Sequence record: PZ445533.1
Direction: 5' to 3' (one strand)
Origin: a phage
DNA length: 48,914 nt
The position numbers were made by a program, and so were the translations under genes. Positions 9,907-48,359 of the stretch are shown here, one piece after another. Under the pieces are notes generated by a model. It was not told the origin of the DNA and did not search any database. It worked only from the letters and a program-made list of their open reading frames with translations. Every line of letters starts with the position of its first letter. Position 1 is the stretch's first letter.

Positions 9907-9945
9907 ATTCCTGTAAAATCAATCTATCAAATAAATTAATTCCAC

Positions 9946-9964: not shown

Positions 9965-9978
9965 AAGGAGATCTTAAG

Positions 9979-10613: not shown

Positions 10614-10652
10614 GCGCCGAGAGGCGCTTTTTTAATATCTGGAGGTTTTAAA

Positions 10653-13334
10653 ATGGCTGAAAAATACGCTGGCCTAACGCTAGGCGTTGACGTGTCGCAG
10701 GTCAACAATGCTGTTAAATCATTGCAGCAATTCAAGAAGGCAAACGACGACGCAAAAAAAAGCGTTAATGAATTTGTTGATTCTGAGGTTGTGGCGCGAC
10801 AGCAAGCAAAACAGTTTGCCGAAGAACTGGCGCGCCAGAAAGCAGAATTTAAGAAAATCCAGGAGTCAATTGATCCCACCGCGTCAAAGATGGATAAGCT
10901 GCGAAAGGCAGCGACACAGCTTGATGCGCTATGGAAAAAGGGCATTGTTCCTGATGAGACTTTTTTTGAGCTTGGATCAATTCTTGAGACGCAGCAAAAC
11001 AAGCTGATCGCAACAAAAAAAGCGATGACGGAGGAAGGCCGCGCGGCGCTTGAGGAATCAAAGAACAAAGCGCGTGCAGCGGAAGAGGCTAAAAAATTCG
11101 TCCAGGCTTTGCGTGAGCAGGAAGAAGCAGCAGGAAAAAGCAAGTCTGAATTGCTGGAAATGAAAGCGGCACAGCTTGGAGTTAGCCAGGAGGCAGCACC
11201 TTACATCGCAAGGCTGAAAGAGCAGGAAAAGCAGATCCAGAAACTTGGGATTTCTACAGGCCAATACAAACAAGCAATGGCGCAATTGCCAATGCAGATC
11301 ACAGACGTGGTGACTTCACTTGCTTCTGGTATGCCAGTTTGGTTGGTCGCAGTCCAGCAGGGTGGACAGATCAAGGATTCTTTTGGTGGTGCATCCAATG
11401 CTTTAAAAGCGTTGCTATCTTTCCTGAATCCGGTAAACGTGGCGTTTGGCTTGCTTTCCGGCACGCTGGCAATTGCTGCATATAATGCCTACAAAGCACA
11501 GACAGAGCTTGAGGCAATTAAAAAAACCGTTCAGGAAACAACTGGCTTGAGTGGTGAGTTTGCCGAAAAGATTGCTATAGGAATCCAGGAGCTTTCCGAC
11601 AAGACAGGCGAAAGCGCCGAAGATCTGGCAAAGGCTTACATAACAACGAAAGACGGCGCGAGCGAGGCGATTAAAAAACTGGTTGACGTTGGGATGACTT
11701 ATGATGACGCAAAAAAGAAAGTCAACGAGTACAAGGGCGCGTCTAGCTTTGTCAGCTTGAATAACGAAATTGCAAACCACAAAAACAAAGTCCTTGAGTT
11801 GGGCGAGTCGTGGTATGAAGTTTTGAAAGCTAAGCGTGATTACGCTTCCCCGTCCGGCGGCCTGTTAGGTAAAGAGCTTGGCTATGTTAATCCTATGCTT
11901 AAGTTTGCACTTAACACTTATGAAGACATTGGAAAGGTCGTAAAAGATGCGAATAAGGACATGGCGGAACGAGCGGAGCGAATCGACAAAGAAAATCTGT
12001 CATTAAACAGAGTGCGAGCGGCGCAAGAGGCTTTAAACAAAGCCATTGAGGATCAGAAGGGCGTGGCGCGTTCGGCTGATGAAGAACTGAAAAAGCGCGC
12101 GGCTGAAAACGTGGAGTTTAGGCGCAAAGAGCTTGAGGAAATCAAGAAGCAGGAGCAGAAAAAGAAAGAGGCTAAAGGTGGAATAGTTCGCGGCCCTACT
12201 GAGCAGCTTGATAAAGAGTTGTACGTTTTAAAGGCGCAACTGGAAACTCTTAAAGAGCATCGCACTGTTAACGATGTTATTTCTCGCCAGCGTAAATCTT
12301 TATGGAGCATCGAAAAGCAGATCGAGATCCTGGAGAATGCGCAGAGCAAGCGTAAATTGACCGGAGCGGAACAGGCGCTACTAAACGAGCAAAAGGCCGT
12401 TCTTGAAATGGCAAGACAAAAAGCTGAGCTAGGGGATCAGATTGTTTTGCAGGAGCGCAAAAACAAGCTGGAGCAAGATAGTCTTAAGTTTATCCGTGAA
12501 ACTGAGGCTGCTATTGATGCGATTGGCCTTAAGCAACTTGGCTACACTGAAAAGCAGATCGAGCGTGAGCTAGAGTTACGCAAGCTGCGCACCGACTACG
12601 AGGCGCAAGGCGGAAGCGTTAGCGATGAAGTTTTTCAGCAAATGGAGGCGAAACTTAAGCTGTATTACCAGGCACAAGACGAGGCGCAAGGCAACTGGTT
12701 AGCCGGAGCAAAGAACGCATGGGAGCTATTCGCGGAAGATGCAAACAATGCCTATGGCAATGTTCAGCAGATCGCAAGCGAGGCGTTAAACGGCCTTACA
12801 AACCAATTAGCGAATTTTATCGCTACTGGCAAGGCAAACTTTAAAGACTTCTCGACGGCTATCATCAAAATGATTATCCAGATGATCACGAAAATGGTCG
12901 TCTTTAATGCGTTATCTGGCCTGATTGGTGGTCAAACCTGGACGATGGGGAGCTTGCTTAAGAATATTGGCGGATTTGCTGGCGGTGGATACACTGGAGA
13001 CGGCGGGAAGTATGAGCCAGCCGGAATTGTCCATAAAGGTGAATTTGTCATGACGAAGGAGGCGACGCAGCGTATCGGGGTAGGAAACTTGTACCGCATG
13101 ATGCGAGGCTATGCTAACGGCGGCGTTGTTGGTAGTTCCGGCTATACTGGCGGTGGCGCTGTAACTGGTGGAGCACCTCAATTTAACATCGGCGGGATTG
13201 ATGTTAGCATCACTAACGGAAACGATCCGAAGGGCATCGAAACTGGTGTTAAGATGATCTTTACTGATATGATTAAACGTTCCTGTATGCAGGGCGGCGA
13301 GGTTTACGAATTTGTTATGAGCAAGCGAGGTTGA
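10653..13334 (+). CDS. Tail tape measure protein
   Basis: 893 aa, long charged coiled-coil regions, Gly-rich C-terminal part; canonical position. Confidence 0.85.
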   Translation: MAEKYAGLTLGVDVSQVNNAVKSLQQFKKANDDAKKSVNEFVDSEVVARQQAKQFAEELARQKAEFKKIQESIDPTASKMDKLRKAATQLDALWKKGIVPDETFFELGSILETQQNKLIATKKAMTEEGRAALEESKNKARAAEEAKKFVQALREQEEAAGKSKSELLEMKAAQLGVSQEAAPYIARLKEQEKQIQKLGISTGQYKQAMAQLPMQITDVVTSLASGMPVWLVAVQQGGQIKDSFGGASNALKALLSFLNPVNVAFGLLSGTLAIAAYNAYKAQTELEAIKKTVQETTGLSGEFAEKIAIGIQELSDKTGESAEDLAKAYITTKDGASEAIKKLVDVGMTYDDAKKKVNEYKGASSFVSLNNEIANHKNKVLELGESWYEVLKAKRDYASPSGGLLGKELGYVNPMLKFALNTYEDIGKVVKDANKDMAERAERIDKENLSLNRVRAAQEALNKAIEDQKGVARSADEELKKRAAENVEFRRKELEEIKKQEQKKKEAKGGIVRGPTEQLDKELYVLKAQLETLKEHRTVNDVISRQRKSLWSIEKQIEILENAQSKRKLTGAEQALLNEQKAVLEMARQKAELGDQIVLQERKNKLEQDSLKFIRETEAAIDAIGLKQLGYTEKQIERELELRKLRTDYEAQGGSVSDEVFQQMEAKLKLYYQAQDEAQGNWLAGAKNAWELFAEDANNAYGNVQQIASEALNGLTNQLANFIATGKANFKDFSTAIIKMIIQMITKMVVFNALSGLIGGQTWTMGSLLKNIGGFAGGGYTGDGGKYEPAGIVHKGEFVMTKEATQRIGVGNLYRMMRGYANGGVVGSSGYTGGGAVTGGAPQFNIGGIDVSITNGNDPKGIETGVKMIFTDMIKRSCMQGGEVYEFVMSKRG

Positions 13335-13336
13335 TA

Positions 13337-13687
13337 ATGAAGCTGGATCAGTTTAAGTGGTGTACGCAGGTTCAGAATGGTGGCGGGGCCATGACGTCAT
13401 CGAATAACGATCGAGAGATTGCATTCGGTAACGGATACACACAGGTAGCATCTGGAGGTTTTAACACAATCCGGCGAGAGTTCAGCATTGTTTACGCTGG
13501 GCTTGATTACAGAGATGTTGTCAAGTTCCTGAATGAGCACAGGCTAAAACCTTTCTTGTGGATCATGCCAGATGGAAGCCCTGGATTGTTTAGGGTGAAA
13601 AGCGGTAGCGTCGGCCTTACTCCATTGTCGCCAACCGTTCAGGAAGTAAAAGCCACTTTTACGGAACAATTTACATCAATGCAGTAA
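13337..13687 (+). CDS. Minor tail protein (lambda gpM-like position)
   Basis: GAGG RBS; 116 aa directly after tape measure. Confidence 0.5.
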   Translation: MKLDQFKWCTQVQNGGGAMTSSNNDREIAFGNGYTQVASGGFNTIRREFSIVYAGLDYRDVVKFLNEHRLKPFLWIMPDGSPGLFRVKSGSVGLTPLSPTVQEVKATFTEQFTSMQ

Positions 13688-13691
13688 TTTA

Positions 13692-13717
13692 AAGCCGCCT
13701 TTGTGCGGCTTTTTTCT
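13692..13717 (+). terminator. Rho-independent terminator
   Basis: AGCCGC ... GCGGCT plus TTTTTT. Confidence 0.55.
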
Positions 13718-13749
13718 TGATGTTACAATGAGCAAAAAGGAGGTAGAAA

Positions 13750-14511
13750 ATGGCTAATAAAGAATCAGGTAGAGTTGAATTTGAGAACTGCCTACAAAGT
13801 TTGTACCCAGGCGAAATTATAACGCTTGTAGAGATTGACGGGACGAAGTTCGGAGCAAATATTTACCGATTTCACAATGAGAACATCTCTTATACTGCCG
13901 AAGAATTAATGCAAGCGCAGCAAACCGGAATATTGCCGCCGAAAGATATTATTTTTCAGGGTGAGGTTTACGGAGCGCGGCCTTTCGGTGTGAGCGGTAT
14001 TAACTTCACAAGTAACGGCAGGGCAGATAAGCCTCAGCTTATAGTGTCAAACCTTGACAGCAGGGTGAGCGCCATGATCAGAAATTACAATGGCATGATG
14101 CAAGCAAAGGTGACTTTCTGGATAACGGCAAAGGAATTTATCGGAGAAGGCGGAGCAATCAAAGATGGCGCTTACAGAAAATTGGTTTATTACATTGAGC
14201 GCCCAAGCCAGTACAATAGAGAGATAGCGAAATTTGATCTAACATCGCCTTACGATATGGATGGACTGATGATCCCGCCGCGCATCACTCAAAGCGTTTG
14301 CTATTGGGCGCAAAGGGGATGGTACAGGAGCGGAAAGGGTTGCTCTTATAACGGATCGGCAATGTTCGATAAAGACAATAAGCCAGTAACAGATCCATCA
14401 CAAGACTATTGCGCCGGAACTGTAACGGCTTGCAAATTGAGGTTCGGTCAGCAAAACGAATTGGATTTCGGCGGTTGCGCGGTTGCTTCACTGCTACGGA
14501 GGAATCAATAA
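13750..14511 (+). CDS. Minor tail protein L-like
   Basis: 253 aa; C-terminal conserved Cys cluster as in lambda gpL; synteny. Confidence 0.6.
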   Translation: MANKESGRVEFENCLQSLYPGEIITLVEIDGTKFGANIYRFHNENISYTAEELMQAQQTGILPPKDIIFQGEVYGARPFGVSGINFTSNGRADKPQLIVSNLDSRVSAMIRNYNGMMQAKVTFWITAKEFIGEGGAIKDGAYRKLVYYIERPSQYNREIAKFDLTSPYDMDGLMIPPRITQSVCYWAQRGWYRSGKGCSYNGSAMFDKDNKPVTDPSQDYCAGTVTACKLRFGQQNELDFGGCAVASLLRRNQ

Positions 14512-15242
14512 TGATTAGTGCAAAAATTAAACTTGAAATAATGCAGCACGTTAAAGAGGAATACCCTAAAGAGGCTTGCGGCGTCATAACTCAAAAGTCA
14601 CGGGTACAGAAATATCACCGCATAACCAACGTGCATGACGATCCAGAAAATCATTTTGAAATGGACGCCGTAGAATACGCTGAATCGCTCGACAAAGGCG
14701 AATTAATCGCGGTGGTGCATTCCCATTGCGGGGATGGTGCTAGCACGATACCGAGCGCGCACGACTCATGTATGTGCGATGAAATGGGTGTGTCGTGGAT
14801 TATAGTGTCATGGCCCGAAGGTGATATGAGAATTGTCGAGCCGCAGGAGAGGCCGCTTATCGGTCGCCCGTGGTCGCTGGGGTCGTTCGATTGCTGGGGT
14901 CTTATCATGGCATGGCATAAACAGCACGGAGTAGTATTGAATGACTTCCGAAAGCCTTACGAGTGGTGGAAGTCAGAATATGGTGAAAATCTTTACCAGG
15001 ATAATTATTTGAAAGAGGGATTTGTTGAAACTAACGAGCCTCCAAAACCTGGTGATATGGTGATTATGCAGCTATCATCGCCAGTCTGGAATCATGCGGG
15101 GATTTATTTGGGTAACAATCAGCTATTACATCATGCGTTTGGAAAGCTATCTCGCATTGACTTGTATTCTGGATGGTATCAGGAGCACACTGTAAAAATT
15201 TGCCGACATAAGGATCTGAAATATGACATTGAAAGTAATTAA
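14511..15242 (+). CDS. Tail tip assembly protein K-like (JAB/MPN + NlpC/P60 domains)
   Basis: JAMM-like HSHCGDG...S..HD motif and NlpC/P60-type Cys (DCWGL) with downstream His; TAATG overlap with L. Confidence 0.75.
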   Translation: MISAKIKLEIMQHVKEEYPKEACGVITQKSRVQKYHRITNVHDDPENHFEMDAVEYAESLDKGELIAVVHSHCGDGASTIPSAHDSCMCDEMGVSWIIVSWPEGDMRIVEPQERPLIGRPWSLGSFDCWGLIMAWHKQHGVVLNDFRKPYEWWKSEYGENLYQDNYLKEGFVETNEPPKPGDMVIMQLSSPVWNHAGIYLGNNQLLHHAFGKLSRIDLYSGWYQEHTVKICRHKDLKYDIESN

Positions 15243-15819
15243 ACTATCTGGTTCCCTGGGGCGTAGATTTGGCGTCTTTCACAAAATGGCGGTTGACTCA
15301 TACCCCGAAGCAATACGAGCGTTATCTTCCCAGGTTGATGGGTTCAAAGACTACATGCAAAGCGAAGTAGGATCGCGAATGAAGTATGCTGTATTTGTTG
15401 ATGGAAAAAACGTTAGTCAGCATGATGAAAAATCATGGAAGTGCGCGCGAGAGGTTCGAATAGTTCCCGTTCCAACTGGTTCTAAGTCCGGCGGCCTGTT
15501 CAATGTTGTTTTTGGTGCTGTAATTATGGCTACTGCGTTCTTTACTGGTGGTGCAAGCCTGGCGGCTATGGGCGCTTTTGCATCTTCCGCATTTATGATG
15601 GGTGGGGCTATCGCGTTGGGCGGTGTAATGCAAATGATCTCACCGCAGCAGGGAGGAATGAAACTGCAAAGCCAATCAGCAGAAAACAAGCCTTCTTACG
15701 CTTTCGGCGGTGCTGTAAATACCACGGCGGCAGGTTATCCGGTTCCTTTGCCATATGGATATAGGACAGTAGGCGGAGCAATCTGGTCGGCTGGCAGCTA
15801 CGCAGAAGATAAAGCATAA
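15223..15819 (+). CDS. Tail assembly protein I-like
   Basis: 198 aa, Gly/Ala-rich hydrophobic C-terminal half; between K and J. Confidence 0.6.
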   Translation: MTLKVIKLSGSLGRRFGVFHKMAVDSYPEAIRALSSQVDGFKDYMQSEVGSRMKYAVFVDGKNVSQHDEKSWKCAREVRIVPVPTGSKSGGLFNVVFGAVIMATAFFTGGASLAAMGAFASSAFMMGGAIALGGVMQMISPQQGGMKLQSQSAENKPSYAFGGAVNTTAAGYPVPLPYGYRTVGGAIWSAGSYAEDKA

Positions 15820-15826
15820 AAAAATA

Positions 15827-15848
15827 CCCGCCTTGCGCGGGTTTTTTT
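15827..15848 (+). terminator. Rho-independent terminator after tail I gene
   Basis: CCCGC CTTGC GCGGG plus T7. Confidence 0.6.
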
Positions 15849-15897
15849 GTGCATTTATAATGTGCAAACCAAGAAACAGCACAAAAGGTTAAAAGTC

Positions 15898-18800
15898 ATG
15901 GCTAAATATATGATAAGCGGCAGTAAGGGCGGAAGCAAAAAGCCATACGTGCCAAAAGAGATGGAAGATAACCTGATCTCGATAAACAAGATTAAAGTTT
16001 TGCTGGCTGTATCTGATGGCGAGTGCGATCCAGATTTCACGTTGCGCGATCTTTATCTTGATGATGTTCCGGTTATTGCCAGCGATGGCACTGTTAACTA
16101 CGAGGGAGTTACGGCTGAATATCGACCAGGTACGCAGACGCAAGATTACATCCAGGGTTTTACTGACACATCAAGTGAGGTGACAGTTGCAAGAGATATT
16201 ACCGGAGACAATCCTTATGTTATTTCTGTTACAAATAAAAATCTATCTGCGGTAAGAATAAAGATCCTGATGCCAGTAGGCATTAAAACAGAGGATAACG
16301 GCGATCTTGTTGGCGTAAGGGTTGAGTATGCCGTAGATATGGCTGTTGATGGCGGTTCTTATAGCGAGGTTATGAGAGATGTAATTGACGGCAAGACAAG
16401 ATCAGGATACGACCGCAGCAGAAGGATTGATCTTCCTAAGTTTGATGAGCGCGTTTTAATCCGAGTAAAGCGACTGACTCCAGACAGCACATCTTCAAAG
16501 GTGACTGATAAAATCAAGCTGCAAAGTTACGCTGAGGTTGTTGATGCAAAATTCCGCTATCCTCTGACTGGACTTGTATTCGTAGAATTTGACAGCGAAT
16601 TGTTTCCTACGCAAATCCCTAACATTTCTATAAAAAAGAAATGGAAGATTATTAATGTGCCAAGCAACTATGATCCAATATCAAGAGAATATCACGGGTC
16701 ATGGGATGGGACTTTTAAAAAAGCGTGGTCAAATAATCCTGCTTGGGTTCTTTATGATCTGGTGACAAATCAGCGTTATGGACTTGATCAGCGAGAGTTA
16801 GGAATACAGATCGACAAGTGGAGCTTATACGAGGCGGGCGTTTACTGCGATCAGAAAGTTCCAGACGGTAAAGGCGGCACTGAGCCTCGCTACCTATGCG
16901 ATGTGGTGATTCAGAATCAAGTTGAGGCTTATCAGCTAATCCGTGACATTTGCTCAATCTTTCGCGGAATGAGTTTTTGGAATGGTGAGAGCTTATCAAT
17001 CGTGATTGATAAGCCGCGCGATCCATCATACGTGTTTACTAATGAAAACGTCATCAACGGTGATTTTCAGTACACAAACGCAAGCGAAAAAAGCATGTAC
17101 ACGCAGTGTAACGTGACGTTTGACGACGAACAAAACATGTATCAGCAGGACGTAGAGGGGGTTTTTGATACTGAGGCGGCATTACGATTTGGATACAACC
17201 CAACAAGCATTACAGCGATCGGGTGTACGCGCAGGAGCGAAGCGAATCGTCGCGGTCGTTGGGTTTTGAAAACAAACCTTAGAAGCACTACTGTAAACTT
17301 TGCTACCGGACTAGAGGGGATGATTCCATCAATAGGTGATGTTATTGCTATCGCTGATAATTTTCAGAGTAGCAACCTAACGTTAAACCTATCGGGCCGA
17401 GTAATGGAAGTTTCAGGGCTGCAGGTTTTCGTTCCGTTTAAGGTTGATGCTCGCCCTGGTGATTTTATTATCATCAACAAGCCGGACGGCAAGCCAGTTA
17501 AGCGCACGATCTCAAAGGTTAGCGCAGACGGAAAAACCATTGAGTTAAATATTGGATTTGGTTTTGATGTTAAGCCTGATACTGTTTTTGCGATTGACCG
17601 TACTGATCTTGCGTTGCAGCAATACGTTGTGACAACCATCAGCAAGGGTGATGACGAAAACGAGTTTACCTATTCAATCACGGCTGTAGAGTACGATCCG
17701 AACAAATACGACGAGATTGATTATGGAGTAAACATTGATGACAGACCGACTTCAATTGTTCAGCCTGACGTGATGGCAGCGCCTGAGAACGTTAAGATCT
17801 CATCTTATTCTCGCGTCGTGCAGGGTGTTAGCGTTGAGACTATGGTTGTTTCATGGGATAAGGTTCCTTACGCATCGCTTTATGAAATGCAGTGGCGAAA
17901 AGGTGATGGTAACTGGCTGAATACGCCGCAGACCGCTAACAAAGAGATAGAGGTAGAAGGGATTTACTCTGGCAACTACCAAGTAAGGGTGAGATCCGTT
18001 TCTGCAAGCGGTAACGCTTCCCCGTGGTCAAAGATTGCAACCGCCACTCTGACAGGTAAAGTTGGCGAGCCAGGAGCGCCGATTAATCTTACGGCTTCTG
18101 ATAATGAAGTTTTTGGCATTCGTGTCAAATGGGGTATGCCGGAAGGATCAGGCGATACGGCTTACATTGAGCTTCACCAATCGCCAGACGGAACGGTTGA
18201 AAACTCAAGTCTGCTTACGCTGATTCCATATCCTCAATATGAGTATTGGCATAGCACGTTACCAGCGGGGCAAGTTGTATGGTATAGAATCCGCAGCGTT
18301 GACAGAATAGGCAACGTTTCAAGCTGGACTGACTTTGTTCGCGGCATGGCGTCAGATGACGTTGAATCTGTTTTGGGCGACATTCTGGACAAGATTTTTG
18401 ATACAGAAGCTGGTCAAGAAATCAAAGAGAACGCCATAGACAGTGCCAATAAAATCAAAGACCAGGCGCAATCAATCATACAGAACGCGTTGGCAAATGA
18501 TGCAGATGTGAAGTGGACGCGAGTGCAAAACGGAAAGCGCAAGGCTGAATATGGTCATGCTCTTGAGCTTATCGCCAATGAAACAGAAGCGCGCGTAACT
18601 CAAATCGAAGAGTTAAGGGCTTCAATTGATGGCGAGATAACATCAAGCATCAAGACAGTGCAGGAGGCAATTGCCACTGAATCAGAGACGCGAGCGACTC
18701 AAATTCAGCAGCTTGATTCTAAATTCACAAAAGAAATCGACGGCGTGCGCAAGGATACTTCTGCAAGCATTAGCGATGTAAGGCAGACAATCACTAACGA

Positions 18801-19476
18801 GTCAGAAGCGCGCGCTCAGGCCGTTCAGCAGCTTGACGCTAAGTTCACGAAAGAGATAAACGACCTTGACGGAGTTATCAAAACAGAAGTCGAGGCTAAC
18901 ATCTCAGAAGTGAAACAGGCGATCGCCAATGAGACAGAGGCAAGGGTTCAGGCTGACCAGGCATTAACAGCACGATTTGGCGACGTTGAATCTGCATTGG
19001 TTGAAAAGTTGGATTCTTGGGCGAGCGTTGATTCAGTTGGCGCTAAATACGCTATGAAACTTGGCCTTACTTACAAAGGCCAGCAATACAGCGCAGGAAT
19101 GGTGATGCAGCTTTCGCAGGGTTCATCCGGCCTTATCTCGCAAATTTTGTTTGATGCTAACAGGTTCGCCATTATGACTAGCTCTACTGGAGGGACTTTT
19201 ACTTTGCCTTTCGTGGTTGAGAATAATCAGGTTTTCATTAATAGTCTTTTGGTGAAGAACGGTTCAATCACTAATGCGATGATTGGTAATGTGATTCAGT
19301 CAAACAACTTTGTTCAAAACCAGCAAGGATGGAGGCTTGATAAAAACGGAATCTTTGAGAATTACGGATCAACGCCAGGAGAAGGAGCTACTAAATTCAC
19401 CAATGAGGGATTGAAGGTAAAAGATGCAAACGGAGTATTGAGGGTTGAAGTCGGAAGGATTACCGGAAGCTGGTAA
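15898..19476 (+). CDS. Central tail fibre / host specificity protein J-like
   Basis: ~1190 aa ORF after M-L-K-I; C-terminal coiled repeat region (ETEARVTQIEEL-type repeats); strong terminator after stop. Confidence 0.8.
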   Translation: MAKYMISGSKGGSKKPYVPKEMEDNLISINKIKVLLAVSDGECDPDFTLRDLYLDDVPVIASDGTVNYEGVTAEYRPGTQTQDYIQGFTDTSSEVTVARDITGDNPYVISVTNKNLSAVRIKILMPVGIKTEDNGDLVGVRVEYAVDMAVDGGSYSEVMRDVIDGKTRSGYDRSRRIDLPKFDERVLIRVKRLTPDSTSSKVTDKIKLQSYAEVVDAKFRYPLTGLVFVEFDSELFPTQIPNISIKKKWKIINVPSNYDPISREYHGSWDGTFKKAWSNNPAWVLYDLVTNQRYGLDQRELGIQIDKWSLYEAGVYCDQKVPDGKGGTEPRYLCDVVIQNQVEAYQLIRDICSIFRGMSFWNGESLSIVIDKPRDPSYVFTNENVINGDFQYTNASEKSMYTQCNVTFDDEQNMYQQDVEGVFDTEAALRFGYNPTSITAIGCTRRSEANRRGRWVLKTNLRSTTVNFATGLEGMIPSIGDVIAIADNFQSSNLTLNLSGRVMEVSGLQVFVPFKVDARPGDFIIINKPDGKPVKRTISKVSADGKTIELNIGFGFDVKPDTVFAIDRTDLALQQYVVTTISKGDDENEFTYSITAVEYDPNKYDEIDYGVNIDDRPTSIVQPDVMAAPENVKISSYSRVVQGVSVETMVVSWDKVPYASLYEMQWRKGDGNWLNTPQTANKEIEVEGIYSGNYQVRVRSVSASGNASPWSKIATATLTGKVGEPGAPINLTASDNEVFGIRVKWGMPEGSGDTAYIELHQSPDGTVENSSLLTLIPYPQYEYWHSTLPAGQVVWYRIRSVDRIGNVSSWTDFVRGMASDDVESVLGDILDKIFDTEAGQEIKENAIDSANKIKDQAQSIIQNALANDADVKWTRVQNGKRKAEYGHALELIANETEARVTQIEELRASIDGEITSSIKTVQEAIATESETRATQIQQLDSKFTKEIDGVRKDTSASISDVRQTITNESEARAQAVQQLDAKFTKEINDLDGVIKTEVEANISEVKQAIANETEARVQADQALTARFGDVESALVEKLDSWASVDSVGAKYAMKLGLTYKGQQYSAGMVMQLSQGSSGLISQILFDANRFAIMTSSTGGTFTLPFVVENNQVFINSLLVKNGSITNAMIGNVIQSNNFVQNQQGWRLDKNGIFENYGSTPGEGATKFTNEGLKVKDANGVLRVEVGRITGSW

Positions 19477-19500
19477 AAAAAGGGGGCATAGCCCCCTTTA
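19474..19500. terminator. Bidirectional terminator between J (+) and cor operon (-)
   Basis: A7 GGGGGC ATA GCCCCC TTT. Confidence 0.6.
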
Positions 19501-19503
19501 ATT

Positions 19504-20118
19504 TTAATCATAGTGTGATGCATTTATAACCAAAACAGATGAAGCGGTGTAAATACCAACAGGTCCAGGAGTTTGTGCAACCTGCCTAGAAAAAGAGTAG
19601 ATCCCGTTACCATACGCGGCAGCTTGAGACTCAAAAATCATGAATCCACCTAAAGCCGGATTAGGAACAGAGTTTAATGCTGTCAGTGATGGCATTATGG
19701 CGCAAGGATAGCCCATGTTAACATCAAATGCGATCCCGCTTACGCCTACTTGCTTTGCATCTAGCGGCCTCATTTTTCCATGATAAACCATTTCACCATG
19801 AGCATTATAAAACGCTATGCCGTGACTACCTGGGGGAGTAACCATATTACTAAAAGCATAAACAATAACCTCACCCTGATTATCAGATCTATCAAGTCTT
19901 ATTGCGTGCCTTCCACCATTGTTAAATTGCGTGAATGATATGTATGATTTAGCGGTCAATCTAACAAAGAAAAAACATACCCTATCAACAGGAATTGACG
20001 AAGTAAAAACGGTTCCGGTATTAGCAGATATTACAGCCCGATCAATTAGATTAACTGGAGTGAAATCTGGACTTAACCATAACGATCCGTCTGATTTTTT
20101 TATACTCATCCCGTACAT
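19504..20118 (-). CDS. Hypothetical protein, third gene of cor operon
   Basis: 204 aa; GGTGA RBS; overlaps upstream gene end. Confidence 0.5.
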   Translation of the reverse strand: MYGMSIKKSDGSLWLSPDFTPVNLIDRAVISANTGTVFTSSIPVDRVCFFFVRLTAKSYISFTQFNNGGRHAIRLDRSDNQGEVIVYAFSNMVTPPGSHGIAFYNAHGEMVYHGKMRPLDAKQVGVSGIAFDVNMGYPCAIMPSLTALNSVPNPALGGFMIFESQAAAYGNGIYSFSRQVAQTPGPVGIYTASSVLVINASHYD

Positions 20119-28065: not shown

Positions 28066-28130
28066 CATAGCATTTTTTGTTAAAACAGTTTATTGTAATG
28101 AGTCTATTATATACTCCAAATGGCATTTTT
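28066..28130 (+). promoter_or_regulatory. Motif copy in divergent region between HTH gene and helicase
   Basis: ATAGCATTTTTTGTTAAAAC then TATTAT 22 nt after TTGTTA, no hairpin; about 60 nt upstream of helicase ATG. Confidence 0.4.
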
Positions 28131-30140: not shown

Positions 30141-30559
30141 TGGCTATAACTGATAAAGGAGATTATCTTGAGTTTTACGAAAGAGATCCAACCGACACTA
30201 GAAAGGAAGTTAATCACCAGATAGATAGCTTTCAGTGGTTGACTTATGCTCATCCTTACTTGCTGGCGTGGCATACGGTAAACGAGAATGAGAAGTCGAA
30301 AGTAACGGCGATGATTGATCAGCAGTCCGGCTTGGTTAAGGGGGTAAGCGATTTCATCATCCTGATTGGTTCAAACGGAAAATACCCCTTTGCAGCGATT
30401 GAGATCAAACGAGTTAATAAATCAGGCAAGGGGAAAGCATCACCAGTCAGCGATGAACAAAAGGCTTTTTTGCGTCGCGTTCGCAGTTTAGGAGGATTCG
30501 CTGCGGTCGCCTACGGATTTAATCAGTTTAAGTTAGCTATTGAATACATGCTTAAATAG
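30140..30559 (+). CDS. VRR-NUC domain nuclease
   Basis: GVSDFIIL...AAIEIKR...DEQKAFL pattern typical of VRR-NUC PD-(D/E)XK fold; TAATG overlap with helicase. Confidence 0.7.
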   Translation: MAITDKGDYLEFYERDPTDTRKEVNHQIDSFQWLTYAHPYLLAWHTVNENEKSKVTAMIDQQSGLVKGVSDFIILIGSNGKYPFAAIEIKRVNKSGKGKASPVSDEQKAFLRRVRSLGGFAAVAYGFNQFKLAIEYMLK

Positions 30560-30612
30560 CACTTTTTGTTAAAACTGGCGCGATGGATTGCGCCATAATT
30601 CAATAACACGAG
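30553..30612 (+). promoter_or_regulatory. Motif cassette (21-bp box + hairpin + ATAAT) upstream of dam
   Basis: AAATAGCACTTTTTGTTAAAAC with TAG as stop of VRR-NUC gene; hairpin GGCGCGATGGATTGCGCC; CATAAT 22 nt after TTGTTA. Confidence 0.5.
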
Positions 30613-31369: not shown

Positions 31370-31627
31370 ATGAAAAAAGAGAGAAGCGTTTATTTAAATG
31401 AAACTGGCGAGTGGTTGTTATTTCGCGCTATGGTGTGCGATGCACTTGATAAAAACCCTAACGTGAAAAAGATGATTGATTGCGATCCGTGGGAATTTTC
31501 AAGCGCATTAGATATGAGCTTTGAGGATACAAGAAAACTACCTCTTGAAAAATGGCACGAACAAATAAGAAATGACATGCAAGAGTTTGTCGATTCGTGG
31601 AATTTTCAGAACGGAATGATCCACTAA
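31370..31627 (+). CDS. Hypothetical protein
   Basis: 85 aa; stop TAA directly followed by the motif cassette. Confidence 0.5.
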   Translation: MKKERSVYLNETGEWLLFRAMVCDALDKNPNVKKMIDCDPWEFSSALDMSFEDTRKLPLEKWHEQIRNDMQEFVDSWNFQNGMIH

Positions 31628-31690
31628 TAGCACTTTTTGTTAAAACGCCCGGCATTTTGTCGGGCATAATTATTTCATCGAAACGAACGT
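31626..31690 (+). promoter_or_regulatory. Motif cassette
   Basis: AATAGCACTTTTTGTTAAAAC, hairpin GCCCGGCATTTTGTCGGGC, ATAATT, CATCGAAACGAAC, RBS GAGG. Confidence 0.5.
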
Positions 31691-42008: not shown

Positions 42009-42277
42009 AAAAGGCATTAATCAGCGTTTTGGCGGCAATGGCATTCCTGACCGGATGCAAAGAAGATGGCGCGCATGTTGGCAATGTGCAGATGGCTAAC
42101 CCTGGTGATGACTACAGCGTAAGGGAGCTATTCACCGCTGACGGTTGCACCGTTTACCGATTCTATGACGATCGCACTGTTTACTTCACCAACTGCAAGG
42201 GCACTACTAGCTGGGAAGTGTCGAAAAGCAATGGCAAAGGCACGAAGACAGAACATATGACCGTCGAGACAAAATAG
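42005..42277 (+). CDS. Lipoprotein (second superinfection-exclusion candidate)
   Basis: 90 aa; signal peptide and lipobox LTGC; ATGA overlap with upstream gene; stop TAG within motif. Confidence 0.55.
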   Translation: MKKALISVLAAMAFLTGCKEDGAHVGNVQMANPGDDYSVRELFTADGCTVYRFYDDRTVYFTNCKGTTSWEVSKSNGKGTKTEHMTVETK

Positions 42278-42335
42278 CACTTTTTGTTAAAACTCAAATG
42301 TGGGGCCAGGTATAATGGCCTCACTTTCAACGAGA
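42272..42335 (+). promoter_or_regulatory. Motif cassette
   Basis: Motif with TAG stop of lipoprotein gene; hairpin GGCC...GGCC with TATAAT in loop, 21 nt after TTGTTA. Confidence 0.5.
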
Positions 42336-43526: not shown

Positions 43527-43684
43527 CTTGGTTGCTTTTAATCTTTGTCACAAGTTACAACTCCGCAGCTATTGAGTCGCAGGAGTTCCACGGCGAATCA
43601 AGATGCCAGGAAGCGCGAAAGCAAGTTGTTCTCCACATGTCAGATAGTGGGAAGGATGTAACAGCGTTATGCGTTCGTAAATAG
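43523..43684 (+). CDS. Small protein with N-terminal hydrophobic/signal-like segment (53 aa)
   Basis: Own translation MTWLLLIFVTSYNSAAIESQEF...; ATGA overlap with upstream stop; TAG stop is the TAG of the 21-bp motif. Confidence 0.4.
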   Translation: MTWLLLIFVTSYNSAAIESQEFHGESRCQEARKQVVLHMSDSGKDVTALCVRK

Positions 43685-43775
43685 CACTTTTTGTTAAAGC
43701 ATTCCATCGGGCTTGCTTTATAGTAAGCCCATCAACAACGAAAGAGGAAAGCATCATGTTGTTACAGCAGACGAG
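43679..43775 (+). promoter_or_regulatory. Motif cassette
   Basis: Motif, hairpin GGGCTT...AAGCCC with TATAGT in loop, ATCAACAACGAAAGAGGAAA. Confidence 0.5.
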
Positions 43776-44056: not shown

Positions 44057-44643
44057 AAAGAGACATCATTATCCTGAATGGGCCACCTGGAGTGGGAAAG
44101 GACACCATTGCGGCATACCTTACCGGACACCAATACCCAGCAGTTAAGGCATCATTCAAACAGCCAATGTTCGATATTGCGTTCTCCATGCTTGGTGTGT
44201 ACAGATACGATGAATTTATGGACTTGTACAACGACCGGGAACAGAAAGAAAAGCCTCAAGTGATATTGCAGGGCAAATCACCGCGTCAGTTCATGATCTG
44301 GATTAGCGAGGAGGTAATGAAGCCAGCATTTGGGGAACAGTATTTCGGCTGGAGAATGGTTGAGCAGATTCACGAAATGTACCGCGACCTTGCAATTATC
44401 GTAACAGACGGCGGCTTTCCAGAAGAAATCAAGCCACTGATTAAAGCAGGTCACAAAGTGCACATTTGCCGACTGCATCGCGAGGGGTACACGTTCGATG
44501 GCGACTCGCGAAACTATATCGACATGGGCGACTATCATCACCGCCTCAAGCATTACGATTTCACGTTGCACGATGGCGAGCCAGAAAAGACGGTGGAGGA
44601 AATCATCGAAACCGTGCAGTGGCATTTCACAAAAATCAAATAG
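44053..44643 (+). CDS. P-loop nucleotide kinase (dNMP-kinase-like, GKDT motif)
   Basis: N-terminal IILNGPPGVGKDT Walker A resembling phage deoxynucleoside-monophosphate kinases; stop TAG within motif variant. Confidence 0.6.
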   Translation: MKRDIIILNGPPGVGKDTIAAYLTGHQYPAVKASFKQPMFDIAFSMLGVYRYDEFMDLYNDREQKEKPQVILQGKSPRQFMIWISEEVMKPAFGEQYFGWRMVEQIHEMYRDLAIIVTDGGFPEEIKPLIKAGHKVHICRLHREGYTFDGDSRNYIDMGDYHHRLKHYDFTLHDGEPEKTVEEIIETVQWHFTKIK

Positions 44644-44705
44644 CACGAATTGCTAAACGCGGGGCGCAATGCTCCGCTATAATTTACCCCGTTCAGTAAA
44701 CATAG
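44639..44705 (+). promoter_or_regulatory. Motif cassette (variant box AAATAGCACGAATTGCTAAA)
   Basis: Variant box containing kinase stop TAG, GC hairpin, TATAAT 22 nt after TTGCTA. Confidence 0.45.
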
Positions 44706-45699: not shown

Positions 45700-45990
45700 A
45701 TGGCAACTATGCGAAAAATGCTTATCAATGGCTTTGAAAGAGAAATTCGCCGTCGAGGCTGGGATGATTCTAAAAATTCACCTTACACTATCAATCGCGG
45801 AGAGTATAAATCAGTTCGACATTTTGCACGATGCCTGGCTGGATGCTACGACCTGGAGCATCCTTTCCCGTTCATGAACGAAACGCTAACCGAAATGATG
45901 GAAGAGGCCGCAACTCAAGATCGACCATTGACGCAACATGATTTTGATGAGTTTGCGCACTGGGAAATCGAATGTGCGCTATATAAATAG
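45700..45990 (+). CDS. Hypothetical protein
   Basis: 96 aa, AGGAGAA RBS; stop TAG within motif. Confidence 0.55.
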   Translation: MATMRKMLINGFEREIRRRGWDDSKNSPYTINRGEYKSVRHFARCLAGCYDLEHPFPFMNETLTEMMEEAATQDRPLTQHDFDEFAHWEIECALYK

Positions 45991-46050
45991 CACTTTTTGT
46001 TAAAACCAGCTTCGGCTGGTTTTGTATTATATGCGCATCGACAACAGAGG
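45985..46050 (+). promoter_or_regulatory. Motif cassette
   Basis: Motif with TAG stop, hairpin CCAGCTTCGGCTGG + T-run, TATTAT, CATCGACAACAGAGGAGG. Confidence 0.5.
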
Positions 46051-46803: not shown

Positions 46804-47114
46804 TTTACATTCACTACTACCAAATCGGAACAAACGAGAACAAAAAAGAGCATCGTTTCATTCATGATGATTTTGACAAGGCAAAGGCGCAGCAACAGGT
46901 TTTAGGCGGTGTCATTCAGGCTTTTGAGCCTGTAGAAGATATTGAGCACCGCGATCATTTAAAAGATATTGTCATTGATGAGATCTCTTGCTTGATTGAC
47001 GATATGACAAATCACGGCCCTGGTTCCCCGTGGGAAGATGCAGGATCTGTAACGTGGGACAAGGCAAAAGTTAAGACGCTAAACAACTTTCGGGAGATTC
47101 TCGACGGTTTTTAA
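46800..47114 (+). CDS. Hypothetical acidic protein
   Basis: 104 aa; ATGA overlap. Confidence 0.5.
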   Translation: MIYIHYYQIGTNENKKEHRFIHDDFDKAKAQQQVLGGVIQAFEPVEDIEHRDHLKDIVIDEISCLIDDMTNHGPGSPWEDAGSVTWDKAKVKTLNNFREILDGF

Positions 47115-47184
47115 TTAAAAACACATAGCCGCTAGAGCGCCTCAGTAGCATTCTAACGAGTTATTTTTTAAGTAAGGTGATTTT

Positions 47185-47313
47185 ATGGGTGAGTACAAGC
47201 AGCCTTCGCAGTGGTGCAAAGAGAAGCAGGAGGAGGCATTGGAGCGCGGAGAAGTAGAAGAAGCCATGAACTATTTCAAACTTGCGGAAGAATGGAAGGG
47301 GAGAGGATACTGA
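47185..47313 (+). CDS. Small ORF (42 aa, uncertain)
   Basis: AAGGTGA RBS 5 nt upstream of ATG 47185; TGA overlaps ATG of next ORF. Confidence 0.3.
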   Translation: MGEYKQPSQWCKEKQEEALERGEVEEAMNYFKLAEEWKGRGY

Positions 47314-47543
47314 TGTTCGGTATGAATGAGGCGCAATTCAACGCAGCTAAACGCCAGGCTAAAAAGTGCGGCGAGGCCATGAAAGCGGATGTAGAAAAGC
47401 GCGGGAAGTATGTTGATGAAGTAATGAAGAGCATCATTGCAGAGCACTACCAACCAATCGCGCCAATGTTGACGATCACGCAATTTATCTGGCTGTGCGG
47501 TTACTTGCGCGGGCGGTGGGGCAATGCTTTCGACCGCGAATGA
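47313..47543 (+). CDS. Hypothetical protein
   Basis: 76 aa from ATG overlapping upstream stop; GGAGAGGA RBS. Confidence 0.45.
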   Translation: MFGMNEAQFNAAKRQAKKCGEAMKADVEKRGKYVDEVMKSIIAEHYQPIAPMLTITQFIWLCGYLRGRWGNAFDRE

Positions 47544-47572
47544 TTGACAACGTTGTCATGATTGGATAGCAT
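47544..47572 (+). promoter_or_regulatory. Promoter candidate TTGACA-17-TAGCAT with embedded 14-bp perfect palindrome TGACAACGTTGTCA
   Basis: TTGACA 47544-47549, spacer 17, TAGCAT 47567-47572; palindrome 47545-47558 overlaps -35. Confidence 0.4.
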
Positions 47573-47635
47573 CAATCCCGTAAACGTAAGAGCGGCCTTG
47601 CTGCCGAACGCGTGACGCGATAGTCACAAACAACG

Positions 47636-47682
47636 GCGCTATGCTGGGACACTGTAAGACGTAGCGCCTTTTTTTACGGAGC
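47636..47682 (+). terminator. Hairpin + T7 downstream of palindromic promoter candidate
   Basis: GGCGCTA ... TAGCGCC then TTTTTTT. Confidence 0.5.
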
Positions 47683-47689
47683 AAATAAA

Positions 47690-47923
47690 ATGCAAAAGTT
47701 CAAACTTACAATTGCCTTTCGCGATGAGGTCATTCATCCTTTCTACGGTAGCTTTGATAAATGCTTTACGGTAGAAGTCACAGAAAATCAGCTTAATGGT
47801 GATGATACGTGTATTTCTATCGGTGATGTTGCCTACCCGATTCATAATATTACTTGCATTAAGCGTGAGGTTATCGCCAGTGATTTACAAGGTGAAACTA
47901 ACGATTCGACGGATGGGGCGTAA
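47690..47923 (+). CDS. Hypothetical protein
   Basis: 77 aa, ACGGAG RBS directly after terminator. Confidence 0.5.
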   Translation: MQKFKLTIAFRDEVIHPFYGSFDKCFTVEVTENQLNGDDTCISIGDVAYPIHNITCIKREVIASDLQGETNDSTDGA

Positions 47924-48061
47924 TTGCTCCTCTTGCAAACAAGATTTTGAATGTGAGGTTGCGGCCTTTAATGCAGAGCACGCCGTTAACCTTGCAAAAC
48001 GCCTTTCAGGGGCGAATCCTGAAACACATCAATTTTCCATTAACTTTGTAAAGGAAATGTC

Positions 48062-48304
48062 ATGAGTACGTTACTATTTGTTTTAAGTTATATCCTCACC
48101 TTTATTGCTGGCGCATTTGCATGGGGATGCCTGACGTCAGTCGCAATAGCTCATCTTGCACGTAAAGGCAAGGCGGCGTTTGCCATTTACTCAAGCAAGG
48201 ATGAGAAATGGCATGTTCGCGGTCGATACCTGCGGATCGGACAGGAAATTCACAAGCACATCAAAGCAATGGACGGAAAAGTGGAATACAAATTGCTTGA
48301 GTGA
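48062..48304 (+). CDS. Small membrane protein (N-terminal TM helix)
   Basis: 80 aa; hydrophobic N-terminus LLFVLSYILTFIAGAFAWGCL; followed by terminator. Confidence 0.5.
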   Translation: MSTLLFVLSYILTFIAGAFAWGCLTSVAIAHLARKGKAAFAIYSSKDEKWHVRGRYLRIGQEIHKHIKAMDGKVEYKLLE

Positions 48305-48312: not shown

Positions 48313-48338
48313 AGCCCGCCTTTATGGCGGGTTTTTTA
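48313..48338 (+). terminator. Rho-independent terminator before terS promoter
   Basis: CCCGCC TTTAT GGCGGG plus TTTTTT. Confidence 0.65.
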
Positions 48339-48359
48339 TTGCCCGTTGTCTGGTATAAT
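48331..48359 (+). promoter_or_regulatory. Extended -10 promoter candidate (TGGTATAAT) upstream of terS
   Basis: TGnTATAAT-type element at 48351-48359 just downstream of terminator hairpin. Confidence 0.4.

What the first reader, a model, noticed from the sequence alone, without database searches (positions are those of the whole stretch)
47541..47685. Promoter-terminator pair with a perfect 14-bp palindrome: candidate small RNA or operator-controlled leader
Between two + strand genes lies TTGACA-17-TAGCAT (47544-47572) whose -35 is embedded in the perfect palindrome TGACAACGTTGTCA (47545-47558), followed about 65 nt later by a hairpin plus T7 terminator (47636-47682) and only then the RBS of the next gene. 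A transcript from this promoter would be about 100 nt, or an attenuated leader; the palindrome looks like a repressor operator.
Basis: seen in the sequence. Interest (0 to 1): 0.5.

Follow-up and report, generated by a model that had tools for sequence, protein, structure and literature searches.

The report
Conserved small RNA of T1-like phages
The promoter, hairpin and T-run are real and form this phage's copy of a structured, roughly 100-nt non-coding RNA unit found at the same spot in every T1-like (Drexlerviridae) phage examined. The eye-catching palindrome is a lineage-specific accident, and what the RNA does is unknown.

Summary
In detail: TTGACA-17-TAGCAT (47544-47572), a perfect 14-bp palindrome (47545-47558), a hairpin (47635-47668, -15.3 kcal/mol) plus T7 (47669-47675), then the RBS and ATG (47690).

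The window is a T1-like coliphage (Drexlerviridae, Warwickvirus). The palindrome occurs in 1 of 35 distinct promoter variants, and 14-bp palindromes are common here by chance, so an operator is not supported.

The promoter is conserved family-wide: TTGACN, a spacer of 17 (32 of 35) and TAnnnT. A conserved RNA motif, CGUnnACAnAAGAG, begins 6 nt after the -10 in 33 of 35 variants. Two short hairpins follow (P1, P2), then a 3' hairpin carrying a YNRUAA motif (CCGUAA in most members, CUGUAA here). All are supported by compensatory changes: 97.7% of cells paired, and 16 of 22 pairs changed on both sides.

No Rfam family matches. The element is single-copy per genome and has no E. coli homologue.

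The 3' end differs by lineage:
- an intrinsic terminator here and in close genera;
- no terminator in T1, TLS and Klebsiella phages;
- a tRNA gene directly downstream in Rogue1 and LF82-10.

Best reading: a conserved non-coding RNA unit that yields a roughly 97-nt RNA in this phage, with leaky read-through into three small genes. Whether it acts in trans or in cis is unresolved.

The parts
47544..47549 (+). -35 hexamer TTGACA; it abuts the stop codon (47541-47543) of the upstream 76-aa gene
   Evidence: TTGACN is present in all 35 distinct family variants.
47545..47558 (.). Perfect 14-bp palindrome TGACAACGTTGTCA; judged incidental
   Evidence: Unique in the window. There are 7 such palindromes in the window against 3.9 expected. 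It is present in 1 of 35 promoter variants, shared only with relatives more than 98% identical.
47559..47565 (+). Conserved spacer motif TGATTGG (family consensus CTGAKYGG), just upstream of the -10; it may contribute an extended -10 TG
   Evidence: Alignments.
47567..47572 (+). -10 hexamer TAGCAT
   Evidence: TAnnnT is kept in all 35 variants; the spacer is 17 nt in 32 and 18 nt in 3.
47579..47592 (+). Predicted transcript start and conserved single-stranded 5' segment CGUAAACGUAAGAG (family consensus CGUnnACAnAAGAG)
   Evidence: The motif begins 6 nt after the -10 in 33 of 35 variants and 5 nt after it in 2. It is conserved from Warwickvirus to T1 and KP36; Rogue1 keeps only CGUAGAC. The start site is inferred and was not measured.
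47593..47606 (+). Helix P1: CGGC / GCCG with loop CUUGCU
   Evidence: The stem sequence differs between lineages while pairing is kept: CGGC/GCCG, GCCC/GGGU, GCGC/GCGC, GCUC/GAGC, GUGUG/CACAC. All 4 pairs show changes on both sides.
47607..47611 (+). Conserved junction AACGC (family AACGn)
47612..47627 (+). Helix P2: GUGAC / GUCAC with conserved loop GCGAUA (family RCGnnn)
   Evidence: 4 of 5 pairs are changed on both sides and none is broken in 27 sequences. It is 100% paired in 26 distinct sequences.
47628..47634 (+). A/C-rich linker AAACAAC
47635..47668 (+). Helix P3: GC-rich lower stem, bulged A, conserved internal loop with the motif CUGUAAGAC, and a variable tip
   Evidence: -15.3 kcal/mol, z = -3.6. 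6 of 10 lower-stem pairs are changed on both sides. Sixteen U-G pairs at one position fit the + strand RNA only.
47669..47675 (+). U7 tract; with P3 it forms an intrinsic terminator
   Evidence: The T-run is T5-T9 in Warwick- and Hanrivervirus, weak in PHB17 and BHUENT2, and absent in Pocis76, T1, TLS, P-K7R, KP36 and Rogue1.
47678..47692 (+). RBS GGAG and the ATG of the next gene (77 aa, 47690-47923); this gene is reached only by read-through of P3
   Evidence: No other promoter-like site lies between the T-run and the ATG.

Best explanation
This is the window's copy of a non-coding RNA transcription unit conserved across the T1-like phages (Drexlerviridae).

How I think it works:
- Host sigma-70 RNA polymerase starts at a canonical, conserved promoter (47544-47572).
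- The transcript begins at or next to the conserved CGU at 47579-47581.
- It has a 14-nt conserved single-stranded 5' end, two short hairpins (P1, P2), an A/C-rich linker and a longer 3' hairpin (P3) with a conserved RUAAGAC internal loop.
- In this phage and its sister genera, P3 plus U7 is an intrinsic terminator. Most transcripts should therefore end near 47675 as a discrete RNA of about 97 nt.
- A minority should read through into the three small genes at 47690-48304.
- The same terminator also ends transcription coming from the upstream genes.

My most likely reading is that the RNA itself is the functional product. It would act through its invariant 5' segment and the P2 loop by binding a host or phage factor, or another RNA. 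The palindrome plays no part.

Shown here: sequence anatomy, family-wide conservation, the fixed promoter-to-RNA register, base-pair covariation, single copy per genome, and the absence from Rfam.

Inferred: the transcription start, termination efficiency, early timing and any trans action.
For: Promoter and register:
- The promoter geometry is invariant in 35 distinct variants, and the RNA motif starts 6 nt after the -10 in 33 of them.

Structure:
- On 26 distinct sequences, 97.7% of cells are paired against 80.3% in shuffles.
- 16 of 22 pairs are changed on both sides.
- Slid controls fall to 25-49% paired.
- P2 has 4 of 5 covarying pairs with none broken in 27 sequences spanning three architectures.
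- P1 keeps its pairing with five different stem sequences.
- The U-G pairs fit only the + strand.

Distribution:
- The covariance model finds one copy per genome at the syntenic site: window 47577-47677 at 102.5 bits, T1 at E = 1.7e-6, TLS at E = 1.6e-4 and Rogue1 at E = 0.005.
- KP36 holds a minimal copy.

Independence from the downstream gene:
- The element stays constant while the gene after it differs between phages.
- In LF82-10 and Rogue1 a tRNA gene follows it directly.
- That argues against a gene-specific translational operator and for an RNA module in its own right.

Terminator and coding:
- P3 is -15.3 kcal/mol and is followed by U7.
- Element lengths differ by amounts that are not multiples of three, so no reading frame is conserved.
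Against: - No expression data exist for this locus; the transcript, its ends and its abundance are all predicted.
- The terminator is confined to one part of Tempevirinae. In T1, TLS, the Klebsiella phages and KP36 the RNA is necessarily a 5' leader unless it is processed. That fits a cis role at least as well as a trans role.
- No conserved target was found. The 5' segment has no consistent complementary site in three phage genomes. Host targets could not be searched.
- The conserved 5' segment lies in the initially transcribed DNA, so part of its conservation could be a DNA-level signal.
- The alignment behind one search was fitted to the model, which inflates the paired percentages somewhat.
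Confidence: 0.5

Rival explanations
1. A cis-acting transcription-control leader. In this reading the 5' domain (the 5' strand, P1 and P2) acts on the polymerase that makes it. It could do so alone, as HK022 put does, or with a phage or host factor. The modified polymerase would read through P3 and the terminators that follow. Alternatively P3 is a regulated attenuator. The short RNA would then be a by-product, like lambda 6S RNA from PR'-tR'.
For: - The RNA starts exactly at the transcription start, as putL does (PMC9378689).
- It has two stem-loops followed by a terminator.
- The ancestral forms have no terminator, so the unit works as a leader in most lineages.
- The three conserved small genes downstream have no promoter-like site of their own and need read-through.
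- The + strand downstream carries many strong intrinsic terminators: about 9 in window 1-20000, and likewise in Sip, TLS and KP36.
- The conserved spacer motif between -35 and -10 sits where lambda Q binds (my recollection of the lambda system, not tested here).
Against: - P1 and P2 are only 3-6 bp, unlike the two long irregular stems of put, which has 21 Watson-Crick pairs and a triplex.
- No alternative antiterminator pairing is conserved. The 5'-end complementarity to P3 exists only in the CGUUUAC lineages.
- If read-through were constitutive, the strong U6-U9 terminators would have little reason to persist.
- terS has its own terminator-promoter junction at 48313-48358.
- T1-type late regions are described as serial units with their own promoters (PMC11447400).
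- No antiterminator homologue was seen in the nine proteins tested.
Confidence: 0.3
2. Nothing more than a terminator for the upstream genes next to an ordinary promoter. Conservation would reflect DNA-level signals (promoter, initially transcribed sequence, terminator), with no function for the RNA as such.
For: - The upstream genes have no other terminator, so P3 does end that unit in this clade.
- Promoter and terminator elements are expected to be conserved.
- Single-sequence statistics are unremarkable.
Against: - P1 and P2 are neither promoter nor terminator, yet they keep pairing through compensatory changes across subfamilies.
- The P3 or P4 hairpin and its YNRUAA motif (CCGUAA in most members) persist where no U-tract exists.
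- Non-coding identity of 75-82% is kept between genera in which the gene directly downstream of the element differs.
Confidence: 0.1
3. One reading: an operator-controlled promoter in which a phage helix-turn-helix repressor binds the palindrome TGACAACGTTGTCA over the -35.
For: - The palindrome is perfect and overlaps the -35.
- T1-like phages encode a Cro-like helix-turn-helix regulator. This was shown for the Sip protein, PHROG 2856; the window's own copy was not examined.
Against: - The palindrome is present in 1 of 35 promoter variants. Other Warwickvirus phages have TTGACAACTCTTTCC.
- There is no second copy or near-copy above chance in the window.
- 14-bp palindromes are frequent here by chance.
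Confidence: 0.05

Closest known systems
Lambda PR'-tR' unit (6S RNA) with Q antitermination
   Same: A constitutive sigma-70 promoter is followed within about 100-200 nt by a strong intrinsic terminator, upstream of the packaging and structural genes. A short RNA is made by default, and downstream genes need read-through. There is conserved sequence between the -35 and the -10.
   Different: No Q homologue was identified. The RNA here has conserved, covarying hairpins that the Q mechanism does not require. Most family members have no terminator at all.
HK022 put RNAs (factor-independent processive antitermination)
   Same: A phage-encoded structured nascent RNA that begins at the transcription start of a sigma-70 promoter, has two stem-loops and lies upstream of terminators (PMC9378689).
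   Different: put is about 70 nt with two long irregular stems, a triplex and two copies per genome. This element has 3-6-bp hairpins, a long conserved single-stranded 5' end, an extra 3' domain and one copy per genome. No sequence relation is evident, and no activity has been tested.
Enterobacterial base-pairing small RNAs with a 5'-terminal seed and a Rho-independent terminator (for example RybB, OmrA/B; phage examples such as lambda OOP)
   Same: In this window the product would be about 97 nt. It has its most conserved, unpaired segment at the very 5' end, an A-rich linker, a GC-rich terminator hairpin and a U7 tail.
   Different: The terminator and U-tail are missing in most of the family. 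No target was found. Hfq or ProQ binding is unknown. These comparisons rest on my recollection of those RNAs.
T4 stable RNAs C and D, co-transcribed with tRNA genes
   Same: A phage-encoded structured RNA of unknown function that in some relatives (Rogue1, LF82-10) sits directly next to a tRNA gene in the same transcript. tRNA processing would then define its end.
   Different: There is no sequence or structural relation, and the tRNA adjacency is seen in only two lineages. The comparison rests on my recollection.

Membership tests
Any curated RNA family (Rfam 15) | Score at or above the family's gathering threshold | tested here: not met
   No hit in the whole window. Nothing better than E = 5.6 on 47480-47740. 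No hit on the element in T1, LF82-10, P-K7R, KLB26, HCF1, PMBT35, Pocis76, Henu7 or Rogue1; only the neighbouring tRNAs scored.
Sigma-70 promoter | -35 and -10 hexamers at a spacing of 17 +/- 1 | tested here: met
   TTGACA-17-TAGCAT, a 10/12 match. The geometry is kept in 35 of 35 variants.
Sigma-70 promoter | Transcription actually starts there | not testable with these tools
   No transcript data are available. The fixed 6-nt distance from the -10 to the conserved RNA motif is indirect support.
Intrinsic (Rho-independent) terminator | A GC-rich hairpin immediately followed by a U-tract | tested here: met
   Hairpin 47635-47668 at -15.3 kcal/mol, then U7 at 47669-47675. The stem covaries. This feature is lineage-specific: it is absent in T1, TLS, KP36 and Rogue1.
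Repressor operator | Dyad symmetry conserved in relatives | tested here: not met
   The palindrome is in 1 of 35 promoter variants.
Repressor operator | Further copies of the site at other regulated promoters of the same genome | tested here: not met
   One exact copy only. Near-copies number 5 against 2.0 expected by chance.
HK022 put-type antiterminator RNA | An RNA element located at or near the start of the transcript, upstream of terminators | tested here: met
   The motif begins at the predicted start. Terminators lie downstream.
HK022 put-type antiterminator RNA | About 70 nt folded as two long irregular stems (21 Watson-Crick pairs, a triplex) that clasp the beta' zinc-binding domain | tested here: not met
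   P1 is 3-6 bp and P2 is 5 bp, against the put description in PMC9378689. The model search of HK022 24-30 kb found nothing, but I could not confirm that this stretch contains put.
HK022 put-type antiterminator RNA | Factor-independent read-through of terminators | not testable with these tools
   This needs in vitro transcription or reporter assays.
Lambda Q-type late control | A Q-family antiterminator gene in the genome | not tested
   Only nine proteins were scanned: eight flanking proteins and the Cro-like regulator. None is Q-like. The rest of the proteome was not scanned.
Hfq-dependent small RNA | A terminator hairpin with a long U-tail plus an adjacent A/U- or A-rich site | tested here: inconclusive
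   Met in this window (U7, AAACAAC linker). Not met in most of the family. Binding itself cannot be tested here.
Riboswitch or attenuator | A conserved alternative pairing that competes with the terminator or the RBS | tested here: not met
   None is conserved. The 5'-end to P3 complementarity occurs only in the CGUUUAC lineages. A 3-bp GAG-YUC contact near the RBS in the TLS type shows changes on one side only. The downstream genes are unrelated between phages.
Protein-coding small ORF | A conserved reading frame | tested here: not met
   Element lengths of 99-124 nt differ by amounts that are not multiples of three. Variation follows base pairing, not codons.

The most novel reading that the evidence does not exclude
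The 5' domain is a previously undescribed functional RNA fold shared by the whole Drexlerviridae family. It comprises a transcript-start-anchored CGUnnACAnAAGAG strand, P1, AACGn and P2 with an RCG loop. It is made from one of the few canonical host-type promoters of these phages.

It would work as an RNA-only or RNA-protein device. One possibility is that it modifies host RNA polymerase, functionally like put but structurally unrelated. Another is that it captures a conserved enterobacterial factor early in infection.

The three interchangeable 3' ends (terminator, tRNA, plain leader) would then be different ways of releasing the same active RNA.
Probability: 0.25. Interest if true: 0.75.

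Novelty: new member of a known kind. Interest (0 to 1): 0.5.

Why it matters
T1-like phages are classic, abundant coliphages, well represented in current phage collections. How they control their own transcription or take over the host is still poorly understood; the recent TLS re-annotation lists host shut-off among its open questions (PMC11447400).

This locus is a conserved, experimentally tractable RNA of about 60-250 nt with a defined promoter. Its structure is supported by covariation, and its 5' end is more conserved than any neighbouring protein.

If it is a regulatory or host-targeting RNA, it offers an entry point into T1 early biology and would be a new RNA family for Rfam. If it acts on the polymerase, it would be a second, structurally distinct example of RNA-mediated control of elongation in phages.

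It also corrects annotation. Several deposited genomes call ORFs across it.

Tried and rejected
- **Rfam.** Searches at the gathering and permissive thresholds on the window and nine relatives found nothing.
- **tRNA or tmRNA.** None was found in the window. A BLAST hit labelled 'tRNA-Ser' turned out to be the element lying next to a real tRNA, not a tRNA-like element.
- **Operator.** Rejected by conservation and copy number.
- **Second copies in the genome.** None was found by the covariance model or by a motif scan.
- **Host homologue.** None in 5,426 E. coli genomes.
- **Targets within the phage.** The 5' segment gave only non-homologous, moderate hits in three genomes.
- **Members outside Drexlerviridae.**
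  - The viral-contig pattern scans found only T1-like contigs plus chance hits.
It gave 17 true members: 11 on contigs of about 50-53 kb, the rest on shorter fragments. All have the known architectures.
- **Relatives through the flanking proteins.** The downstream protein gave none and the upstream protein gave only close relatives.
- **Lambda boxA.** CGCTCTTA lies on the minus strand and is probably chance; the U-G pairs favour the + strand.
- **Motifs considered by eye and dropped.** GNRA-receptor, K-turn, ops and CRISPR-repeat resemblances were not conserved.
- **Literature.**
  - No paper on T1-family small RNAs or transcriptomes was found.
  - A catalogue of 8,495 candidate phage RNAs may contain this element, but its tables were not available.
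- **HK022 put.** A sequence-level comparison could not be done properly, because put was not located in the sparsely annotated record.

Full report
**1. What is in the sequence**

The interval lies between a 76-aa ORF (47313-47543, PHROG 303, function unknown) and a 77-aa ORF (47690-47923), both on the + strand.

- The stop codon TGA (47541-47543) abuts TTGACA (47544-49). After 17 nt comes TAGCAT (47567-72).
- This is the only + strand promoter-like site in the last 5 kb.
- The palindrome TGACAACGTTGTCA (47545-58) is perfect.
- Downstream, GGCGCUAUGC...GACGUAGCGCC (47635-68) folds at -15.3 kcal/mol (z = -3.6) and is followed by seven U (47669-75).
- GGAG follows at 47678-81 and ATG at 47690.

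The description is therefore accurate. Taken alone it is not statistically special.

- Promoter-like hits are at the shuffle level.
- The window has seven perfect 14-bp palindromes against 3.9 +/- 2.2 expected.
- The palindrome has no other copy.
- The whole 104-nt fold has z = -2.1.

**2. Where the window comes from**

The region is 98-99% identical to the Escherichia phages BEBK14, WaterSpirit, MatMar, Jahat_MG145 and BabyEgg. It is about 83% identical to many Warwickvirus phages (Drexlerviridae, Tempevirinae). The window ends inside the terminase small-subunit gene.

**3. The intergenic sequence is conserved far beyond close relatives**

- A 221-nt query found 141 phage records at 74-82% identity across genera.
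- The same gene order recurs everywhere: a 129-nt gene, a roughly 230-nt gene, a 130-270-nt gap, two to four small genes, a terminator, then terS.
- Alignment shows what is and is not conserved.

In 35 distinct promoter variants:
- the -35 is TTGACN in all;
- the spacer is 17 nt in 32 and 18 nt in 3;
- the -10 is TAnnnT in all;
- the spacer carries CTGAKYGG;
- the next conserved block, CGUnnAC..., starts 6 nt after the -10 in 33 and 5 nt after it in 2.

The conserved block therefore begins at the position where sigma-70 promoters start transcription. The palindrome occurs in one variant only, the window's. It is shared just with Jahat, BabyEgg and MatMar, which are too close to be informative. 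Sip, in the same genus, reads TTGACAACTCTTTCC.

**4. The transcript is a structured RNA**

In window coordinates the parts are:
- a 5' single strand, CGUAAACGUAAGAG (47579-92);
- P1, CGGC/GCCG (47593-606);
- the junction AACGC;
- P2, GUGAC-GCGAUA-GUCAC (47612-27);
- the linker AAACAAC;
- P3 (47635-68).

RNAalifold on eight diverse sequences predicted these helices, with 8 of 22 pairs compensated.

A covariance model built from them found exactly one hit in the window (47577-47677, 102.5 bits). It also found one hit in each T1-like contig among the loci from a pattern scan.

On the 33 model-aligned matches (26 distinct):
- 97.7% of cells are paired, against 80.3 +/- 1.0% in shuffles;
- 16 of 22 pairs show changes on both sides;
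- sliding the partner by 1-3 columns drops pairing to 25-49%.

The alignment was fitted to the model, which flatters these numbers. However, a plain MAFFT alignment of the 5' domains of 27 sequences from three architectures independently gives P2 with 4 of 5 pairs compensated and none broken. A rule-based parse shows P1 built from five unrelated stem sequences.

Sixteen U-G pairs at one P3 position would be C-A on the other strand. The structure therefore belongs to the + strand RNA.

Element lengths differ by amounts that are not multiples of three, so it is not coding.

**5. Family-wide anatomy**

The 5' domain is near-universal.
- T1: CGUAGACAGACGAG, P1 GCGC/GCGC, AACGC, P2 GUGAG-ACGAUU-CUCAC.
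- TLS.
- Rogue1 of the Rogunavirinae, which lacks the AAGAG part.
- KP36 of Webervirus, which has a minimal version ending after the second hairpin.

The 3' domain comes in three forms that share a YNRUAA motif (CCGUAA in most members; CUGUAA in the window; CAUAA in a few type I members).
- **Type I** (the window, Warwick-, Hanriver-, Henuseptima- and Changchunvirus): the motif is an internal loop of a long GC-rich hairpin followed by a U-tract. The tract is strong (U5-U9) in the Escherichia clades, weak in PHB17 and BHUENT2, and absent in Pocis76.
- **Type II** (TLS, Salmonella phage 36, the Klebsiella and Citrobacter phages): a variable hairpin, then CGGG-AACCGUAA-CCCG, then a conserved AACCAYUCAGGAG ribosome site, with no terminator.
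- **Type III** (T1, LF82-10, Rogue1): extra hairpins and a loop ending in GUAA, with no terminator.

In LF82-10 a tRNA-Ser gene begins directly after the last hairpin. In Rogue1 a tRNA-Arg gene does the same.

The first protein gene after the element differs between phages.

**6. What it is not**

- No Rfam family matches any variant.
- It is not a tRNA.
- It has no homologue in E. coli genomes.
- It has no second copy per genome.
- Within the limits of the scans, it has no member outside T1-like contigs.
- The flanking proteins have no known function.

**7. Context**

[quoted passage not shown] It also described a 21-nt repeat, aaATAGCACnnnTTGnTAAAA, of unknown function (PMC11447400).

The same repeat is abundant in this window: 19 matches against 2.6 expected. 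In 12 of 16 strict copies a TAnnnT -10-like hexamer starts 18-19 nt after it (11 at exactly 19 nt), and the other copies also have a -10-like hexamer near 18-21 nt by eye. That suggests a phage-specific promoter class.

The promoter studied here is not of that class. It is a canonical host-type promoter, so I infer that it is active without phage factors and hence early.

No promoter-like site lies between the U-tract and the next ATG. The three small genes at 47690-48304 include PHROG 2919 and DUF7299 proteins. In this clade they depend on read-through of P3. The next terminator (48313-33) and an extended -10 (TGGTATAAT, 48350-58) precede terS.

The + strand beyond terS has about nine strong terminators in 19 kb.

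**8. How it most likely works**

Shown: a conserved promoter, an RNA whose conserved sequence starts at the predicted +1, three covarying helices, and in this clade a good intrinsic terminator.

Inferred: host RNA polymerase makes a roughly 97-nt RNA ending at the U-tract, with some read-through.

I favour the view that the RNA itself is the product under selection.
- The module is independent of what follows it: different genes, or a tRNA.
- Its most conserved part is an unpaired 5' terminus in fixed register with the promoter.
- Three different solutions exist for the 3' end (terminator, tRNA processing, plain leader), all placed just after a protective hairpin.

The main rival is a cis-acting role on the transcribing polymerase or on read-through, resembling put or Q.
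- It is favoured by the terminator-less ancestral state, by the dependence of the downstream genes on read-through, and by the terminator-rich late region.
- It is disfavoured by the very short helices, the lack of a conserved alternative pairing, and the persistence of strong U-tracts.

I put these at about 0.5 and 0.3. 'Just a promoter next to a terminator' gets 0.1 and the operator idea 0.05.

**9. Novelty and interest**

I found no description of this RNA in the held literature or in Rfam. A 2023 catalogue of candidate phage RNAs may list it, but I could not check that.

It is a new RNA family of a familiar kind: a promoter-proximal phage small RNA or leader. It is well supported as a structure and open as to function. 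It covers a classic phage family in which transcription control is largely unknown. I rate interest at 0.5.

Noticed in passing
window, e.g. 1566-1584, 28067-28085, 30556-30574, 31627-31645, 42274-42292, 43681-43699, 44640-44658, 45987-46005 (+); 40946-40928, 39641-39623, 37724-37706, 37050-37032, 34888-34870, 20742-20724, 9964-9946, 6209-6191 (-): The 21-nt repeat ATAGCACnnnTTGnTAAAA gives 19 matches against 2.6 expected. In 12 of 16 strict copies a TAnnnT -10-like hexamer starts 18-19 nt after the repeat (11 at exactly 19 nt), and the remaining copies also have a -10-like hexamer near 18-21 nt by eye. A small hairpin often lies between the two. This looks like a phage-specific promoter class with non-canonical spacing. 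The repeat is reported for TLS, T1, Rtp and Rogue1 as function unknown (PMC11447400).
   Followed up: partly
L078 751-838 (phage LF82-10); L232 3387-3462 (phage Rogue1): tRNA genes (Ser-GCU and Arg) lie directly 3' of the conserved RNA element in two separate lineages. The element would then be the 5' leader of a tRNA precursor.
   Followed up: partly
L232 3249-3371 (Rogue1 gp13); L002 722-1024 and L003 705-1007 (G29-2 and egaa CDS): These annotated ORFs overlap the conserved non-coding RNA. They are probably over-annotation or over-long N-terminal extensions.
   Followed up: no
L236 8728-8832 (Klebsiella phage KP36): A minimal version of the element: the promoter, CGUAGACACAAGAG, P1 and one further hairpin (GCCCC-GCUUA-GGGGC), then the RBS. 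There is no CCGUAA domain and no terminator.
   Followed up: partly
window 48313-48358: A strong bidirectional-looking terminator (AGCCCGCC...GGCGGGTT plus T-run) is followed by an extended -10 (TGGTATAAT) just upstream of terS. The same junction is present in Sip, TLS and KP36.
   Followed up: no
window 47588-47595, minus strand: CGCTCTTA, identical to lambda boxA, is the reverse complement of the conserved AAGAGCG. The U-G pairs favour the + strand RNA, so this is probably coincidence.
   Followed up: partly
phage records MG065636-MG065685: About 20 records labelled 'Campylobacter phage' match this T1-like coliphage intergenic region at 75-78% identity. They are probably mislabelled or contaminant assemblies.
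   Followed up: no
window 47108-47121: A perfect AT-only palindrome, TTTTTAATTAAAAA, lies in the gap after the 104-aa gene, next to a weak hairpin (47090-47104).
   Followed up: no
L079 (Enterobacter phage N5822, MW032452): The record is 78 kb and circular, but it is classified as Henuseptimavirus and carries a normal copy of the element. Its size suggests a misassembly or a concatemer.
   Followed up: no
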